The translations under genes were made by a program, and so were the position numbers. 64,000 bases of DNA from Euglena gracilis (Eukaryota): NCBI GenBank assembly GCA_039621445.1, contig CP154954.1:14364387-14428386 (forward strand), given 5' to 3'. A model generated the notes under the pieces. It did not search any database and was not told the origin of the DNA. It was given only the letters and a program-made list of their open reading frames with translations. Shown here piece after piece: positions 5,265-11,245 of this stretch (positions within the stretch are counted from its first letter, which is position 1; each line of letters opens with the position of its first letter).

Positions 5265-6533
5265 GTCCTGTTTCCAAATTTCTGTTTTTGTAAGCCTCAG
5301 CTCCTGTGGCGATTCATAAGTCTTCCTGAATGCGATACTCCAACATGGCAACTGTCCGAATGTGTCCAACTCCTAGGCTGAGGGGGAGGGTGGATGGGAC
5401 CACGGAATGCTTCCCTCATCCCAGGGGTCAAATGTATTTTCTATTTGTTAAATCACGGGATATACTGAGTCAATGTTCTGATTATTTTTTTTTTGATCTG
5501 ATCATTCTTGGACAAACTTTTTTTTTAAAGGGTATTTTCAAGCCTTTCTGTTTTCATTCAGAACTCCTGGCGCATTTTTTTCCTCCGCCCAGGTTCTGGG
5601 GGGAAAAAGCTTCTGGTTATTAGCTGGTTTGATATCAAAGTTTAATGGGTACGTGTGATAATAGAAGGAAGTTTTTACAAATTTCGTCATTTGCGACATC
5701 GATGGAAATTTTGAGCCGTAATTCACATCCTTCAAAAGAGAAACTCGCATCCTTCCACAAAAAAAGGTCCATAAGCACGACTTCTGGCATTTTGAAAACA
5801 CGCTGATTCTGGACATGTGGAATTTATTTGGTGAAAAATCCAAAAGCGCAAAAAAACATGCCGAAAAGTTTGGTCTCAAATGAAATCTGGTCCAGGATGG
5901 GGAGTTTTTTTATTTTTTAAGTGGGGGAAAGCTTAAAAAAGCTCAGTAATCGCCAAATTTTGTCAAAAATTGTAAATACTGGAAATTTCGGCAAAACTGC
6001 AACAAATTAACAAAAAAATCACCTCGGTTCCCTTGTGGAACGTTCAAGGAATTGCCGGAATTCATTGTAGAACGGAAAAAAAATTGCGAAAAATTGAACA
6101 AAAATTGCGAAAATTGTGGACAACGGCGACAAAGAACAAAAAAAAATATTGGATATATATTGGATATTGGATATATAAATATTGGATATCAATCCCCCCC
6201 AACTGTCAATCGCATTTATTTTTGGGGAATCTCGTAATTGAAGCGTCATATCGTTTGGGGGGTAATTGAAGGGTCAATACCTTGGGGTCCACAGACCAGT
6301 GAAGGGAAGGGGAGCCCATAACGGGGAAAACTTCGCCATATCCTCTCTTCCTCTGGGACCTGGTCCCGTGCCAGGGGGCAACCTTAGGGGGGCCAAATTT
6401 GTGCTTTTAGAATTTTGGTGCGCTAGTTGCAAAAGAAGCCAAAAACGTTAAACACAAGGAGCCAAACTTTAGGGCGGGGGAAAGATGATGGGTGATGAAG
6501 AGGTTGGGAGGGGTGGCAAACGCCTGGTGGGAA

Positions 6534-6586
<53 letters not shown>

Positions 6587-8702
6587 TTATATAATATATA
6601 TATATATATATTCCAATTTTCTGGCTAATTTCATCACTCTGACCGTTTTTGACCGTTTGAGGGACATTTTTTTTGACCAAATTGCCATTTCTGGCCACTT
6701 TTAGCAACTGATGTCAATTTTTTGCTAGCTTGAACAGCGTCAAGCTTTAAACATTCAGGTCAAGACATTTTGAGTAATGTGTTACCCTTTCTGCTCGTAA
6801 TCATCATTTTCAGCATTTTATTGTGATATTTTGTTGTTTTACTATTTTTATTAGTAAAAAAACATGTTCATGGAGCCAAAGTATCCAACAAGAGCGCATT
6901 GGACTTGAATATCTGGTCGGCTCGTCAATTCACAAATCATGTCAGTGGAAGACCTTCTGAAAACGAATATTTTCTGAAATGGATTCACATCACCGAAGCT
7001 ACATTTTGTCAAACAGGAAAATATGCCTTTTTTTCGGCAAGAATGTGTGTGCAGAGAGTGGTCCAGTGCTCCACTGATGTGCTTCTGGGTCTTGGATGGG
7101 CGTACAGAAAACGGTCAGCAGCAGCACAACAGGAACTAACGTGTTGTTCGCACAAGATACCCTGTGCTGTAATACGGTAGCGGCGAAGTGCATTTGACTG
7201 TTTGAGAGGGCTTCCAAGGCAGCCAACCCAGCGTTGGATACACAAAGCCAGGCGGTGGTCCATCTTATGGTTTGAGGAGCCGGGGAGTGCCCCCCCCCAC
7301 CTAAACTGTGGCGTGATGGATTATCGGTGCGGCACAAAAGAACGAGGAGATTAAAGCAAATCAGGTACCCGCAAAATAGGATGTGGCTAATACAGTACAA
7401 ACAAAAAAGGAGTTGCTTGCCCCCTCCAGCAGAAGTGTAAAAATACAAAAAAACCACAATTCCCGCAATTTTACATCAATTTTTCCGCAATTTTTCCGAA
7501 AGTATATCAATTTTTCACCTCCTGGTGATTAAGCAAAAATTCAAACGAGAACACCCCAAATAAGACCCCTGGTGCGAAGCGTCGGGGAGGGCGAATTTTT
7601 TCCTGAAATTTTTGGGGTTTACCCCAATAATCCCTCATTTCTATCTGGTATTGTTTTTGGGCGTAGCGCCAGAGGATATTTTGTTTGCTTCTTTTGAAAC
7701 CTGCCAAGGAGGGGGTTGCGGTCCAGGAACTCTCCCAACGTCTGGGGGGGGGGGACAAAACCTGCCGAAAAAAGCCACACCAAATACCCATTTTCACCTG
7801 GGCGAGCAGGCAGTTGGGATGGGTTTTTTCAGTTGGAGGAGCCTGGAGGACCAGGACCCCAGACCTCCCAGGAGAAAGGGGTCCAGCCAGTGGCTTTTCT
7901 TGTGGCTAGTTTTCGGACCGCCTGGGGTCCCAAGACAGATCCTGGCTCTGATTATGAAATAGGTGTGTGTGTGTGTGTGTGTGTTTATGTGTTTGTGTGT
8001 TTGTGTGTTTGGTTTTTGATTACAGGTCTTTATTTTTCATTGCAAATTGTCCCATCATGCTGCACTGGTCCTGCACCTTTACACCTGCGATCTGACACAA
8101 GGTTTTCAAAATTCATTTGCGTTCGGCCCTGCTTGCTGGAGAACAGTAAGAGAACGCTTTCTTCCTTCCTACCTCATTTGTTGCACTGCGACCACTTTGG
8201 CCGTGCCATGTCTTTGCCTGTGGAACAGAGGGCTTTGTTTGTGGGCCAATTGAACTGCACTCGAACCATCCACTCCGCTGGTGAGATTGTGATCAAAGCC
8301 TGCTTTTTGCGTTTTTCCCTTGTTTGACTCCCTGTGCGCGTGTTTTCAGGTGTCTACCCCCGCATCAGTAATGAACAGGGGGTCCGGACCTTCCAGTTTG
8401 TCAGCTTTTATAGCAATCAAATGCCATACACTCACGCTCAAAGAATTAGCCCTATTCGGAATATTTTGGTGTCCATTCGGTTTGGGGGGGGAGGTCCATG
8501 AAATATTATTGCACAAAAATATTGACCTTCCTTTTTATGGATTCCAGAACATTTCACATCACCAAGTAGTCAACCAACGATGGTGGGTCAGGTGTGAACC
8601 GTCACTGCTTGATGGGACAAGATGCCACAATATTTGGCACAATGCAGCTTTCGCGGCATGGCACTTTTCCAACCCATCATGGAACCATGGCAACTTGCTA
8701 AC
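5265..8702. pseudogene. Degenerate duplicate (copy A) of the exon block at 8.8-11.2 kb, with internal inversions
   Basis: Same block order as 8800-11230. The exon at 8026-8240 has a 27-nt deletion and frameshifts relative to 10744-10986. The inverted exon at 5290-5372 has an in-frame TGA where copy B has AGC. Confidence 0.7.
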
Positions 8703-8907
8703 ATGTATTTTTTGCAGTTTCGACTTTTTTATCCAGTTCGACCCCAGCAGCCTTTGTCCATTCAGCCCTCAGCCCCCCCCCCCAAAGCTACGCCTAAAGC
8801 TGATCTGAAATTAAAGCTGAGTATATCCTATGATTTAAAAAAAATATATAATACATGAGATGAGGTATGCATTCTGGTGGTCCCATCCACCCTCCCCCTC
8901 CGCCTAG

Positions 8908-10689
8908 GAGTTGGACACATTCCGACGGTTGCCACGTTGGAGTATCGCATTCAGGAAGACCTAAGCATTGCCACAGCAGCTGAAGCTTCCAAGAACAGAA
9001 ATTTGGAAACAGGGTTTATTTTTTTTGATCTGATCGTTTTTGGGCATTTTTAATTTATTTCCTTCTTTTGGGTAATTTCGAGCCTCTCTGTTTTGATTCA
9101 GAACTCCTGGCGTCTTTTTTTTTCCTCCGCCCAGGTTCTCGGGGGAGAAAAAGATTCTGGTCATTAGGTGGTTTGATATCAGAGTTCTTTGGTGATGTGT
9201 CTTACTCTTGTTCCCATCAATGCAATACATCTTGTTGTATTTCTCAGCAGGAAAACACACACACACACATCAGGGTTATCCCCAAATGAATACGAAGAAA
9301 TTATTGTAAATTAACAATGTATTGTCCCAAAAAATTTCTGATAGCAGAATTGGGGAAGGATAATAGAAGGAGCAACTCCTTTTTTTTTTTTTATTGTATT
9401 AGCCATATCCTATTTTGCGGGTACCTGATTTGCTTTTAATCTCCTCGTTCTTTTGTGCCGCACCGATACGCCACAGTTTAGGCGGGGGGGGTCAAACCAT
9501 AAGATGGACCACCGCCTGGCTTTGTGTGTCCAACGCTGGGTTGGCTGCCTTGGAAGCCCTCTCAAACAGTCAAATGCACTTCGCTGCTACCGTACTACAG
9601 CACAGGGTATCTTGTGCGAACAACACGTTAGTTCCTGTTGTGCTGCTGCTGACCGTTTTCTGTACGCCCATCCAAGACCCAGAAGCACATCAGTGGAGCA
9701 CTGGACCACTCTCTGCACACACATTCTTGCCGAAAAAAGGCAGCTTTTCCTGTTTGACGAAATGTAGCTTCGATGACGTGTGTGTTTCTGTGGTCGGCTC
9801 GTCGTTTTGTGAAAATTTTCTGCCCCCCCCCCCCAGCAGCAGTGTATTAATTACCAAAACCGCAATTTCCGCATTTTTTTGCGCAACTTTCCCGCAATTC
9901 CCGCAATTTTTCAGCAATTTACCCGCAATTTTTTCTGAAGTCCTCCGATGTCAATTCCCCCCTCCCTGCGATGAGCAAAAATTAGCCCCCTTGTGCGAAG
10001 AGTCGGGGACGGTAATTTTTTCCTGAAAAAAACTCTGGAAAGAGACCTGAAAGAAACTGCCACAATCCCTCGTTTCTATCTGGGATGTCTTTGGGCGTAG
10101 CACCGGAGGAAAATTTTTCGCATCTTTTGAAACCTGCCGAGGAGGGGGTGTTTTGCGGTCCAGACACCCCCTCCCAACGGCGGGCTGTCACGTCACCCCC
10201 AGGGGGGAGGTCCAGATTCCAATCAAATTCAATACTGGAATGCTTCCCATTCCTGGTGATCAGGCTCCCCCATGAGGGTTCACAGTACAACCCTGGGGGG
10301 GTCGACTGCAGCTAGTCCAAATTTGGCTTGGACCCCCTGGGTGAGTTCTGCTTGCAGGCTAGGTCGTTGATTTTTTTTACAAGTGACCAGCGCGAAGCAC
10401 CAGAAAAATTGACTGGCCAAAACCTGCCAAAAATGGCCGTTTTGCAGGTTTTGCATTTTTTTGGGAACAAAACCAGCCGAAAAGGAAAAAAAAACACCCC
10501 AAAAACTCATCTCCACCTGGGCCAGCAGCCAGTTGGGATGAGTTTTCCATTTGGCGGACCTGGGGGACCCAAACTCCGGACCTCCCAGCAGAGAGAGGTC
10601 CAGCTAGTGGCTTTTCTAGTGGCTAGTTTTAGGACCCCAAGGCAGAGCCTGGCTCTGATGCAATGTGTGTGTGTTTAGGTGTGTGTGTT

Positions 10690-10724
<35 letters not shown>

Positions 10725-11245
10725 ATTTGGTTTTTGATTGCAGGTGTTGATTCTTCATTGCAAATTGTCCCACCATGTTGGTTTTTCACTGGCACTCGAT
10801 TCGGCTGCATTGGTCCTGCACCTTTACACCTGCAATCTAACCAAGTTTTTCAGAATTCATTTTCGTTCCACTTGCTTGCTGGAGTATAGTAAGAGAACAC
10901 TATCTTCCTTCCCACCTCATTTGTTGCACTGCGACCACTTTGACCGTGCCATGTCTTTGCCTGTGGTAACAGAGGGTGCTTTGTTTGTGAGTGGATGTGC
11001 AGTGTTGACTGAACTGCACTCCAACCCTGCAGCGTGAGTGTATGGGTTGGATTGCTATAAAAGCTGACGAACTGGAAGGCCCGGACCCCTTTTCATTGGG
11101 CAAGGGGTCTCGTTACACATGGGTGGGTAGGTGCTTGATGGGACAAGATGCCGCAAGATTTGGCACAATGCAGCTTTCGCGGCATGGCGCCTTTCCAACC
11201 CATCGTGGATCCATGGCAACCTGCTGAAGCGTCCCCCGCTGGCTG
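8908..11245 (+). CDS. Exons of an unknown protein (copy B): about 8908-8995, ~9504-9735, 10744-10986, 11131-~11245
   Basis: AG acceptors precede each exon (cgcctag|, cataag|, gattgcag|, gggtag|) and a GTGAGT donor lies at 10987. Peptides: GVGHIPTVATLEYRIQEDLSIATAAEASK; WTTAWLCVSNAGLAALEALSNSQMHFAATVLQH...; VLILHCKLSHH...EGALF | VLDGTRCRKIWHNAAFAAW. Differences from copy A are enriched in synonymous changes. Confidence 0.55.

What the first reader, a model, noticed from the sequence alone, without database searches (positions are those of the whole stretch)
5265..11230. Tandem duplicate in which exon-bearing blocks are flipped in place while neighbouring blocks stay direct
Seen: copy A (about 5265-8700) and copy B (about 8800-11230) share block order. 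Inverted: X (5267-5470 vs 8817-9013), Z (6990-7417 vs 9371-9775) and W (8370-8438 vs 11031-11097). Direct: Y (5485-5640 vs 9018-9184), 7420-7740 vs 9825-10180, 7755-8240 vs 10420-10990, and 8607-8700 vs 11132-11227. A simple inverted duplication would reverse the order. In B all exons lie on +; in A two lie on -. Block X in B runs from ..CTG to CAGG.., that is, between outward-facing element ends. Inference: transposase- or inverted-repeat-mediated inversion of exons between adjacent intron/MITE ends, a route to exon scrambling.
Basis: partly seen in the sequence, partly recalled or inferred. Interest (0 to 1): 0.75.

Follow-up and report, generated by a model that had tools for sequence, protein, structure and literature searches.

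The report
Flipped exon copies in duplicated gene
A 3-kb piece of a spliced, apparently non-coding gene of a Euglena-type organism was duplicated in tandem, and three short stretches (two of them exons) were later turned around on the spot in the spare copy, which leaves one readable copy of each of those two exons and creates a long inverted repeat.

Summary
Self-BLAST gives two collinear copies, A 5160-8699 and B 8701-11225. Three blocks are inverted in place: X 5267-5469/9013-8817 (83%), Z 6986-7417/9780-9371 (91%; a 247-nt core is 99% alike) and W 8370-8438/11097-11031 (90%). Five blocks are direct (69-93%).

RNA reads and the Euglena nonconventional-intron code put one gene on the + strand. 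X is a sense exon in A and antisense in B. Z (exon 9553-9687) is sense in B and antisense in A. W lies inside an intron. The spliced exons have stops in every frame.

The duplication is intragenic. It starts 116 nt upstream of exon X and ends 11 nt before the end of exon R. All three flips fit into one redundant middle segment (5669-9370). This leaves the chain e-X(A)-Z(B)-Q(B)-R(B) intact.

The block edges have no flanking inverted repeats beyond an A/T run. The edges of Z are not at intron ends. Transposase- or repeat-mediated flipping is therefore not supported, and it is not excluded for X.

My best reading is small in-situ inversions by break-and-rejoin or template switching, tolerated only in the spare copy, followed by gene conversion of the Z pair.

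The parts
3767..3915 (+). Exon e, upstream of the duplication. The preceding exon ends at 2977.
   Evidence: RNA depth and loose ends at 3767 and 3917. The loose end before 3767 was found at 2958-2977.
3916..5275 (+). Nonconventional intron between exon e and exon X of copy A: AAG-CAG...CTG-TTTCC|A. It has a 12-bp terminal stem and 8-mers at its borders that resemble a target-site duplication. It is filled with high-copy repeats at 4102-5004.
   Evidence: of all acceptor-like sites in 3960-12000, only this one pairs 11/11 with the donor; the next best pairs 9/11. ATTCCAAG/TTTCCAAA match at 6/8. DNA depth 13,000-82,000 in 4102-5004. The RNA joint itself was not among the rows shown.
5160..8699 (+). 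Copy A of the intragenic tandem duplication.
5267..5469 (+). Block X in copy A, in sense orientation: acceptor motif CCTG-N5, then exon X from 5276. The exon end is not determined.
   Evidence: In one search the RNA loose end after 3917 resembles X read in the orientation it has in A (23 of 30 letters by my own count), and RNA depth is low in 5005-5606.
5487..5656 (+). Block Y in A, direct and intronic.
5669..6985 (.). A-specific 1.3-kb stretch between Y and the flipped Z. It holds an (AT)n run at 6525-6620.
6986..7417 (-). Block Z in copy A, antisense. The mirror of exon Z lies at 7080-7214. The core 7029-7275 is 99% complementary to 9492-9738.
   Evidence: 3 mismatches in 247.
7420..7745 (+). 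Block P in A, direct and intronic, rich in CCGCAATTTT motifs.
7751..8243 (+). Block Q in A, direct. Exon Q is 8073-8198, with an intact acceptor CTG-GTCCT|G.
   Evidence: X15 contig on 8072-8198 with 0 mismatches, depth 39.8.
8370..8438 (-). Block W in A, a flipped 69-nt island inside the intron 8199-8645. RNA depth is 0.
   Evidence: X5 contig 8317-8598 spans both edges.
8606..8699 (+). Block R in A. Exon R starts at 8646 and is truncated by the duplication junction, so it has no donor.
8701..11225 (+). Copy B of the duplication.
8817..9013 (-). Block X in copy B, antisense to the gene. RNA depth is 0 in 8918-9218.
9019..9200 (+). Block Y in B, direct.
9371..9780 (+). Block Z in copy B, sense. 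Exon Z is 9553-9687, with acceptor CTG-CCTTG|G and donor |CAT-CAG.
   Evidence: X15 contig on 9553-9647 with 0 mismatches, and a joint leaving 9687; splicing code and stems.
9827..10184 (+). Block P in B, direct.
10185..10462 (.). B-specific insertion that contains a high-copy dispersed repeat with CAGGGGGGAGGTCC / GGACCCCCTG ends.
   Evidence: DNA depth 14,938 in 10122-10422..
10463..10989 (+). Block Q in B. Exon Q is 10818-10941; its start is inferred by homology, and its acceptor motif reads TTG instead of CTG.
   Evidence: RNA joint 10941->11172 (23 reads).
11031..11097 (+). Block W in B, inside the intron 10942-11171.
11132..11236 (+). Block R in B. Exon R is 11172-11236. Further exons follow at 11642-11691, at 11920-12028 and from 13048.
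   Evidence: RNA joints 10941->11172, 11236->11642 and 11691->11920. The loose end after 12028 was found at 13048.

Best explanation
The region is an old tandem duplication inside a gene. The two copies are now 7-30% diverged. The duplicated piece is about 2.5-3.5 kb of a + strand, multi-exon, apparently non-coding transcription unit whose introns are of the Euglena nonconventional type. The piece runs from 116 nt upstream of exon X to 11 nt before the end of exon R.

Three short segments of the redundant material were turned around where they lay:
- exon Z with 90-180 nt of flanking intron, in copy A;
- exon X with its acceptor motif, in copy B;
- a 69-nt intronic island W, probably in copy A.

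I take these to be small in-situ inversions made by two nearby breaks rejoined the wrong way, or by short template switches during replication. Each flipped block has copy-specific filler DNA on at least one side and no flanking repeats.

The flips survive only in the contiguous spare segment 5669-9370, which lies in what is now one long intron between X(A) and Z(B). The original exon chain e-X(A)-Z(B)-Q(B)-R(B)-... therefore stays intact.

The two Z copies now form an inverted repeat. A 247-nt core of that repeat was recently homogenised, most simply by gene conversion.

Shown: the arrangement, the exons Z, Q and R, the gene strand, the stems and code of the introns, and the lack of an open reading frame. 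Inferred: use of the X(A) acceptor, which copy carries the flipped W, the break-and-rejoin mechanism, and gene conversion.
For: Arrangement.

Gene strand and exons:
- One search shows RNA joints 10941->11172 (23 reads), 11236->11642 (3) and 11691->11920 (15).
- One search also shows an X15 contig on 9553-9647 with 0 mismatches that stops at 9553.
- Introns fit 5'-N3CDG...CH'GN5-6|R (code from the abstract of PMC12501133) on the + strand at 3916/5275, 9688 and 8072.
- The donor at 3916 pairs 11/11 only with the acceptor of X in A; 1 of 44 rows listed with 8 or more pairs reaches 11, counting the two spacings of one site once.

X is an exon in the orientation it has in A: the RNA loose end after 3917 is X-like in that orientation (my own count gives 23/30 identical to A and 25/30 to the reverse complement of B).

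Duplication junction: it lies inside exon R with no transposon at the joint.

Filler next to each flip:
- A-specific 5669-6985 beside Z'.
- 8273-8369 and 8439-8605 around W'.
- B-specific 8753-8816 beside X(B).

Flanking repeats: none beyond an A/T run.

Z core: 3 mismatches in 247 nt, against 7.7% divergence in the four best conserved other blocks, P=4e-6. The core is bounded by indels.

Coding potential: the spliced chain has at least 4 stops in each frame. No Pfam hit in 26 ORFs. No protein relatives.
Against: - Three in-place inversions in 3.5 kb is far more than ordinary small-inversion rates would predict. This comparison is recalled, not computed here, and it may mean a local mechanism is being missed.
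- One edge of X falls within 1-4 nt of the terminal CTG of a transposon-like intron, which break-and-rejoin does not predict.
- A 13-mer (TGGTCGGCTCGTC) lies left of Z' in A (6914) but right of Z in B (9791) (p about 0.05). If that is real homology, Z did not flip strictly in place.
- Exons Q(A) and R(A) stay in sense orientation and are used at a low level (X15 depth 39.8 against 415.3 for a third copy), so the spare copy is not fully silent.
- The joint 3915->5276 and a joint from X(A) to 9553 were not among the 15 joints shown (49 were not shown).
- Only 4 of 12 edges are seen bridged by independent contigs.
Confidence: 0.5

Rival explanations
1. Transposase-mediated flipping. Nonconventional introns are MITE-like elements. 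Cuts at the facing ends of two neighbouring intron-transposons release the exon between them, and it is rejoined upside down. This resembles reversed-ends transposition of Ac/Ds or inversional V(D)J joining.
For: - The intron 3916-5275 looks like a transposon: 12-bp terminal inverted repeat, border 8-mers matching at 6/8, and CAG/CTG at the expected offsets.
- The homology of block X starts at CCTG (5267-5270) and, by BLAST, ends at CTGAG/CTCAG (5465-5469; 8817-8821).
- W begins 6 nt before a CAGGGGGTCC motif that resembles the end of the high-copy repeat at 10200.
- An 8-mer, TGATCTGA, flanks X in B.
- A review states that euglenid nonconventional introns have terminal repeats and TSD-like repeats and are suspected to derive from MITEs (PMC11282704, passages read).
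- Reversed-ends transposition makes duplications with 8-bp target duplications (PMC3744419, abstract).
Against: - The edges of Z are 182 and 93 nt away from the intron termini and carry no CAG/CTG end motif.
- Block X keeps 4 nt of the intron's terminal repeat, so the break was inside the repeat and not at its end.
- The 8-mer flanking X in B is not significant (p about 0.14), and its right-hand copy is part of block Y in both copies.
- There is no transposon at the duplication junction.
- The donor-side motif of X is not confirmed by RNA.
Confidence: 0.15
2. One complex replication-based event (serial template switching of the MMBIR/FoSTeS type) made the duplicate and its three inverted pieces at once. 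In this view an already scrambled copy was inserted into the X-Z intron.
For: - All three flipped blocks can be placed in one contiguous segment, 5669-9370, between an untouched X(A)-Y(A) and an untouched Z(B)...R(B).
- X and W are as diverged as the direct blocks (83-90% against 69-93%), so the flips may be as old as the duplication.
- The junctions carry filler DNA and no long homology.
Against: - Template switching has no reason to put each inverted piece back at its own position; it would need about 7 ordered switches.
- The polarity of W is only guessed.
- Three of the four possible assignments of the X and Z flips to copies would also fit a single segment, so the fit is weak evidence.
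Confidence: 0.2
3. Assembly artefact (haplotypes or paralogues stitched together), or chance juxtaposition of independent dispersed repeats.
For: - The genome holds at least one further similar copy. RNA and DNA contigs differ from A at 8083, 8111, 8120 and 8142.
- Most laid contigs are only 95-99% alike (1105 of 1445 in X1).
- No record spans the whole stretch.
Against: - The flipped blocks are 9-17% diverged from their partners, which misjoined haplotypes would not be.
- Contigs of a 2018 run from another study span both edges of W in A with 2 mismatches, and other contigs span one edge of X in A and one in B.
- Summed depth over X, Z and W is about 1-5 times the depth of the single-copy-like contigs listed (130-250), against about 15,000-82,000 over the true dispersed repeats beside them.
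- There are no other copies in the window.
- X and Z are exons that fit the intron code of one gene.
Confidence: 0.07

Closest known systems
Euglenid nonconventional introns (splicing code 5'-N3CDG...CH'GN5-6|R, PMC12501133 abstract; terminal repeats and TSD-like borders with suspected MITE origin, PMC11282704 passages)
   Same: The introns around X, Z and Q have non-GT-AG borders, CAG/CTG at the stated offsets, a purine as first exon base, and extended end-to-end stems. The intron 3916-5275 also has TSD-like 8-mers.
   Different: Those papers describe the introns. My search found no report of exon inversion or duplicate scrambling in Euglena (1 paper, unrelated). Two introns here (Q->R and 11692-11919) have stems but not the exact offsets.
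Small in-situ inversions (microinversions) and short template-switch mutations between paralogues or related genomes (recalled; no paper read here)
   Same: Short segments are reversed in place, without long flanking repeats and with small indels at the joints.
   Different: Three occur within 3.5 kb. Two of them hit exons. They are complementary between the two copies of an intragenic duplication.
[quoted passage not shown]
   Same: It makes tandem duplications and inversions next to pairs of transposon ends and leaves 8-bp target duplications.
   Different: Here there is no transposon at the duplication junction, no significant 8-bp duplication at the flip joints, and the edges of Z are not at element ends.
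Hairpin-RNA or miRNA loci born from inverted duplication of a gene fragment (recalled)
   Same: A sense and an antisense copy of the same exon lie 2.2 kb apart inside one transcription unit, with 247 nt at 99% complementarity.
   Different: No small-RNA data were available. The repeat arose inside the gene itself. Whether both arms are on one RNA is inferred from the gene model.

Membership tests
Euglenid nonconventional intron | 5' border N3 followed by C-D-G | tested here: met
   3916 AAG-CAG, 9688 CAT-CAG and 11692 GCC-CAG. Not met at 10942 (GACC-GTG; the stem is shifted by 1) or at 11237.
Euglenid nonconventional intron | 3' border C-H'-G, then N5-6, then a purine as first exon base | tested here: met
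   CTG-TTTCC|A at 5276, CTG-CCTTG|G at 9553 and CTG-GTCCT|G at 8073. Copy B has TTG at 10810-10812.
Euglenid nonconventional intron | Base pairing that brings the two intron ends together | tested here: met
   12 pairs at 3916/5275, 9 of 10 for 9688/8072, and 6-11 pairs for the Q->R introns and for 11692/11919.
Euglenid nonconventional intron | The junction is used in RNA | tested here: inconclusive
   Seen for 10941->11172, 11236->11642 and 11691->11920, and for the donor 9687 joined to a Q exon of a third copy. Not shown for 3915->5276 or for the acceptor 10818.
Tandem (direct) segmental duplication | Two adjacent collinear copies with a single junction | tested here: met
   8699|A|8701. The left end is at 5160 and the right end at 11225.
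Inversion by recombination between flanking inverted repeats | Inverted repeats at both edges of the inverted segment | tested here: not met
   6 edge pairs gave p = 0.013 (an A-run/T-run pair in B that is direct in A), 0.95, 0.16, 0.87, 1.0 and 0.80.
Reversed-ends / alternative transposition | Transposon termini exactly at both breakpoints, with new 8-bp target duplications | tested here: not met
   X has one edge 4 nt inside an intron terminal repeat. The edges of Z are 93 and 182 nt from intron ends. The 8-mer TGATCTGA around X(B) has p about 0.14.
Dispersed repeat / mobile element (for X, Z and W themselves) | Many copies, with terminal repeats and target duplications | tested here: not met
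   No other copy in the 64 kb. Depth is about 1-5 times that of single-copy-like contigs. No terminal repeats or duplications at the edges. The whole genome could not be searched.
Hairpin-RNA locus | Both arms on one transcript, and small RNAs from the arms | not testable with these tools
   The arms are 99% complementary over 247 nt. No small-RNA run was laid.
Structured RNA gene (snoRNA or similar) for the conserved intronic island W | Match to an RNA family, or a fold better than shuffles | tested here: not met
   Rfam gave 0 matches at gathering scores and 0 at E<=1. Fold z-scores were +1.26, -0.29, -1.27 and -0.89.

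The most novel reading that the evidence does not exclude
In a splicing system where an intron is defined by pairing of its two ends, turning an exon around has a special effect. The flip removes a decoy exon. It also creates, by mirror symmetry, a perfect partner for the remaining sense copy.

On the + strand, 7217 AGG-CAG-CCAACCCAG pairs 12/12 with ...CTGGGTTGG-CTG-CCTTG|9553. 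The inverted Z could therefore define a giant nonconventional intron, 7217-9552, that loops out the whole spare copy. Alternatively, it could fold the pre-RNA into a double-stranded hairpin of 247 bp or more that feeds RNA silencing of the gene family.

If the flips are also made at intron-transposon ends, Euglena would have a DNA-level route by which its transposon-like introns flip exons and tidy up, or regulate, intragenic duplications.
Probability: 0.1. Interest if true: 0.8.

Novelty: new variant of a known kind. Interest (0 to 1): 0.45.

Why it matters
Duplications inside genes are common, but how a gene survives one is rarely seen. In this locus the two exons that would compete for splicing have each lost one copy by being turned around, so the original exon chain is still readable.

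The organism's introns are recognised by pairing of their ends. In such a system inverted copies of splice regions are not neutral. They can mask or mimic splice partners and they create long double-stranded RNA.

The locus is a concrete, testable case for three questions:
- whether the transposon-like introns of Euglena promote local rearrangements;
- whether inverted exon copies regulate paralogues;
- how fast small inversions arise in this very repeat-rich genome.

If it is only neutral decay of a spare copy, it is an ordinary, though neat, structural oddity.

Tried and rejected
- Whole genome: none is held for this window. The copy number of the blocks and the third copy could not be looked up.
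- Protein identity: Pfam on 26 long ORFs found no family. The search for homologous proteins found nothing with the 207-aa ORF across Z or with a 65-aa piece over exon Z. All three frames of the spliced exons have stops. I therefore treat the transcript as non-coding or UTR, and the gene could not be named.
- RNA families and tRNAs: none found. A snoRNA reading of W is rejected because it has no boxes that I could recognise and no fold signal.
- Flanking inverted or direct repeats at the block edges: nothing beyond A/T runs.
- A donor after X(A) that pairs with the known acceptors: none found with 5 or more pairs. The 3' end of exon X stays open.
- Sequences complementary to the acceptor of Z(B): only its own mirror in A, at 7220.
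- Earlier notes of this scan: no look-alike stretch for Z or for copy B, no note near this window, and none on inversions.
- Two metagenome scans with exact 23-nt and 26-nt words from exons Z and Q: 0 matches.
- The look-up of sequencing runs listed no holder on record as RNA. The runs guessed to be RNA and the raw RNA run were laid instead.
- The library X21 is not clearly stranded (first mates about 1:2 on +/-), so I did not use it to assign strands. The strand comes from the intron code.
- A DNA contig joint 6704->7421 with 15 other letters (table 5c) could be an allele lacking Z'. I rejected it as evidence because its flanking matches are short and lie in repeat-like sequence.

Full report
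1. The observation.

A self-comparison of 4001-8760 against 8701-12500 and an independent repeat search both show two adjacent, collinear copies: A at 5160-8699 and B at 8701-11225.

Three blocks match only in reverse complement:
- X: 5267-5469 vs 9013-8817 (83.5%).
- Z: 6986-7417 vs 9780-9371 (91%).
- W: 8370-8438 vs 11097-11031 (90%).

The blocks between them match directly:
- 5160-5217 / 8701-8752.
- Y: 5487-5656 / 9019-9200.
- P: 7420-7745 / 9827-10184.
- Q: 7751-8243 / 10463-10989.
- R: 8606-8699 / 11132-11225.

E-values run from 2e-19 to 8e-177. None of the blocks recurs elsewhere in the 64 kb.

2. Is it real DNA?

No whole genome is held. I therefore laid contigs and reads of four public runs on 3500-12500.
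- The rows shown include contigs that span the left edge of X in A (X1, 5162-5349, 0 mismatches).
- They span both edges of W in A (X5, a 2018 run of another study, 8317-8598, 2 mismatches).
- They span the right edge of X in B (X15, 8867-9080).
- That is 4 of 12 edges. 2437 rows were not shown, so the rest is untested.

The flipped blocks differ from their partners by 9-17%, which is not what misjoined haplotypes look like. Summed DNA depth over X, Z and W is roughly 1-5 times the depth of the single-copy-like contigs listed (130-250). The true dispersed repeats next door (4102-5004 and 10122-10422) reach about 15,000-82,000. I take the arrangement as real. No long read has checked it.

3. 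What the region is.

Earlier notes of this scan call the genome Euglena gracilis and tie its nonconventional introns to small transposons. I did not verify the species.

The published Euglena code for such introns is 5'-N3CDG...CH'GN5-6|R(exon) (PMC12501133, abstract). It fits here on the + strand.

RNA evidence:
- Joints 10941->11172 (23 reads), 11236->11642 (3 reads) and 11691->11920 (15 reads).
- A contig that matches 9553-9647 exactly and stops at 9553.
- A joint that leaves 9687.

Around these points the sequence reads CTG-CCTTG|G at 9553 and |CAT-CAG after 9687. The acceptor of exon Q in A reads CTG-GTCCT|G at 8073. The intron ends pair at 9 of 10 positions.

Upstream, exon e (3767-3915) is followed by AAG-CAG. 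Its 12-nt stem partner sits at 5259-5270, ending in CTG-TTTCC|A at 5276, which is the edge of block X in copy A. I scanned all acceptor-like sites between 3960 and 12000. Only this site pairs 11 of 11 with that donor, and the next best pairs 9 of 11.

The RNA letters that follow exon e in a related copy are X-like in the orientation X has in A. By my own count they match A at 23/30 and the reverse complement of B at 25/30. The exons before and after the laid stretch lie in the window at 2958-2977 and from 13048.

The result is a single + strand transcription unit: ...2977 | 3767-3915 | X(A) from 5276 | Z(B) 9553-9687 | Q(B) 10818-10941 | R(B) 11172-11236 | 11642-11691 | 11920-12028 | 13048...

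The spliced chain has at least 4 stops in each frame. Single exons have stops in most frames. There are no Pfam families in 26 ORFs and no protein relatives. These exons are non-coding, either a long untranslated region or a non-coding RNA.

- X is sense in A and antisense in B.
- Z is sense in B and antisense in A (mirror of the exon at 7080-7214).
- Q and R are sense in both copies.
- W is not an exon. It lies in the intron 10942-11171 in B and in 8199-8645 in A, where RNA depth is 0.

The statement 'in B all exons lie on +, in A two lie on -' is therefore wrong for X, and W does not bear an exon.

The duplication is intragenic. Its left end (5160) is 116 nt upstream of exon X. Its right end (8699/11225) is 11 nt before the end of exon R. 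R(A) therefore has no donor, and the junction 8699|A|8701 carries no transposon.

5. Anatomy of the flips.

Fine alignments show that each flipped block abuts homologous direct sequence cleanly on at least one side in one copy, and has copy-specific DNA on another side:
- 1317 nt (5669-6985) left of Z' in A.
- 97 nt and 167 nt around W' in A.
- 43-64 nt left of X in B.

A 12-mer follows Y in A (5657) and precedes Z in B (9359). This fixes one breakpoint.

All three flipped blocks, Z'(A), W'(A) and X(B), lie in one contiguous stretch, 5669-9370, if W is taken as flipped in A. I infer that only from its A-specific surroundings. What remains outside that stretch is X(A)-Y(A) and Z(B)-P-Q-W-R(B), which is the pre-duplication order. 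In effect the gene carries a scrambled spare copy inside its X-Z intron.

RNA supports use of the window's own Z(B) (exact contig, depth 93.3). It also supports weak use of Q(A) (exact contig, depth 39.8). A third copy elsewhere is the main expressed one, at depth 415.3. It differs from A at 8083, 8111, 8120 and 8142, and it appears in DNA contigs too.

The joint '9687 goes back to 8073' comes from that third copy. It shows that Z in sense orientation is spliced to Q there, which supports the proposed polarity. A back-splice within this locus is excluded for those reads by the four mismatches.

6. Mechanism.

Recombination between flanking inverted repeats is not supported. In six edge-pair tests only X in B scored p<0.05, and that was with an A-run/T-run pair that is direct in A and so is a result of the flip.

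The transposase idea has some support at X:
- The intron 3916-5275 looks like a transposon, with a 12-bp terminal repeat and border 8-mers ATTCCAAG/TTTCCAAA that match at 6/8.
- This agrees with what a review says of euglenid nonconventional introns (PMC11282704, passages).
- The homology of X begins at CCTG of that terminal repeat.

There is also evidence against it:
- The break lies 4 nt inside the repeat.
- The edges of Z are 93 and 182 nt from its intron ends and carry no end motif.
- The 8-mer around X in B is not significant.
- No element sits at the duplication junction, unlike duplications made by reversed-ends transposition (PMC3744419, abstract).

A single replication accident with many template switches would explain why all flips lie in one segment. 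It would not explain why every inverted piece sits at its own position.

I therefore favour small in-situ inversions, by two close breaks rejoined or by short template switches. They would be retained only where they do no harm, and perhaps favoured because they remove decoy splice sites. My confidence is about 0.5. Three such events in 3.5 kb remains unexplained and keeps the transposon idea alive.

7. The Z pair.

The core 7029-7275 / 9492-9738 has 3 mismatches in 247 nt, against 7.7% divergence in the four best conserved other blocks (P=4e-6). It ends at indels on both sides. Recent gene conversion between the inverted arms is the simplest reading. Selection for pairing is the alternative.

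If the gene model is right, both arms lie on one pre-RNA, 2.2 kb apart. Because the arms are mirror images, the + strand at 7217 reads AGG-CAG-CCAACCCAG, which pairs 12/12 with the acceptor stem of Z(B). This is a ready-made partner in a system that defines introns by end pairing. Whether it is used, or whether the hairpin is diced, could not be tested here.

8. Comparison and novelty.

The introns are members of the euglenid nonconventional class: code, stems and RNA use were met at several junctions. The duplication is an ordinary tandem one.

In-place small inversions are a known kind of change (recalled). My search found no paper that links Euglena, nonconventional introns and inversion (one unrelated hit). 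It found ten papers on Euglena, nonconventional introns and transposons, of which eight were listed; none of those titles or abstracts concerns exon flipping.

What is unusual here is the density of flips, their complementary hit on two exons of an intragenic duplicate, and the consequences in an end-pairing splicing system. I rate it a new variant of a known kind, interest 0.45. The bold reading has about 0.1 probability.

Noticed in passing
window 39127-41601: A dense nest of direct and inverted repeats at 75-94% identity. It includes a 414-nt palindrome at 39816-40229 and 550-nt direct copies at 39127-39679 / 40809-41383. It looks like a large element with long inverted arms, or a second scrambled duplication. 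Strong G-over-C skew (0.24 to 0.31) follows at 40-44 kb.
   Followed up: no
window 4102-5004 and 10122-10422: Very high DNA depth in two independent runs (X1 13,000-82,000; X5 240-4,900), so these are high-copy dispersed repeats. The one at about 10200-10342 has CAGGGGGGAGGTCC...GGACCCCCTG ends, and pieces of it match 51474-51507 and 54359-54390.
   Followed up: partly
window 26656-27065 and 45128-45535: A 410-nt direct repeat at 95.6% identity, 18 kb apart, the youngest dispersed pair in the window. Weaker relatives lie at 28645-28860.
   Followed up: no
window 31394-32549 and 42029-42616: Tandem repeats: two units of about 575 nt at 79% identity, and units of about 166 nt at 88-93%.
   Followed up: no
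window 8083-8179 and 3803: RNA and DNA contigs reveal at least one further copy of the gene. It differs from copy A at 8083, 8111, 8120 and 8142 and is expressed about 10 times more strongly than copy A in run X15. At 8179 every DNA contig of X1 (5 of 5) and X5 (5 of 5) reads C where the window has T. At 3803 about half of the RNA reads carry C.
   Followed up: partly
window 6079-6119 and 7454-7495: A 42-nt inverted repeat (86%) of the CCGCAATTTTT-type motif brackets the A-specific insertion plus Z' in copy A. It does not explain the flip, because the start of block P inside it is still direct.
   Followed up: partly
window 6914-6926 and 9791-9803: The 13-mer TGGTCGGCTCGTC lies in direct orientation to the left of Z' in A but to the right of Z in B (p about 0.05). 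If it is homologous, Z moved past it when it flipped. This is unexplained.
   Followed up: partly
window 54001-56000: Strong C-over-G skew (-0.31), with repeats shared with 15790-15889, 21059-21156 and 27715-27983. This is a family of short GC-rich repeats.
   Followed up: no
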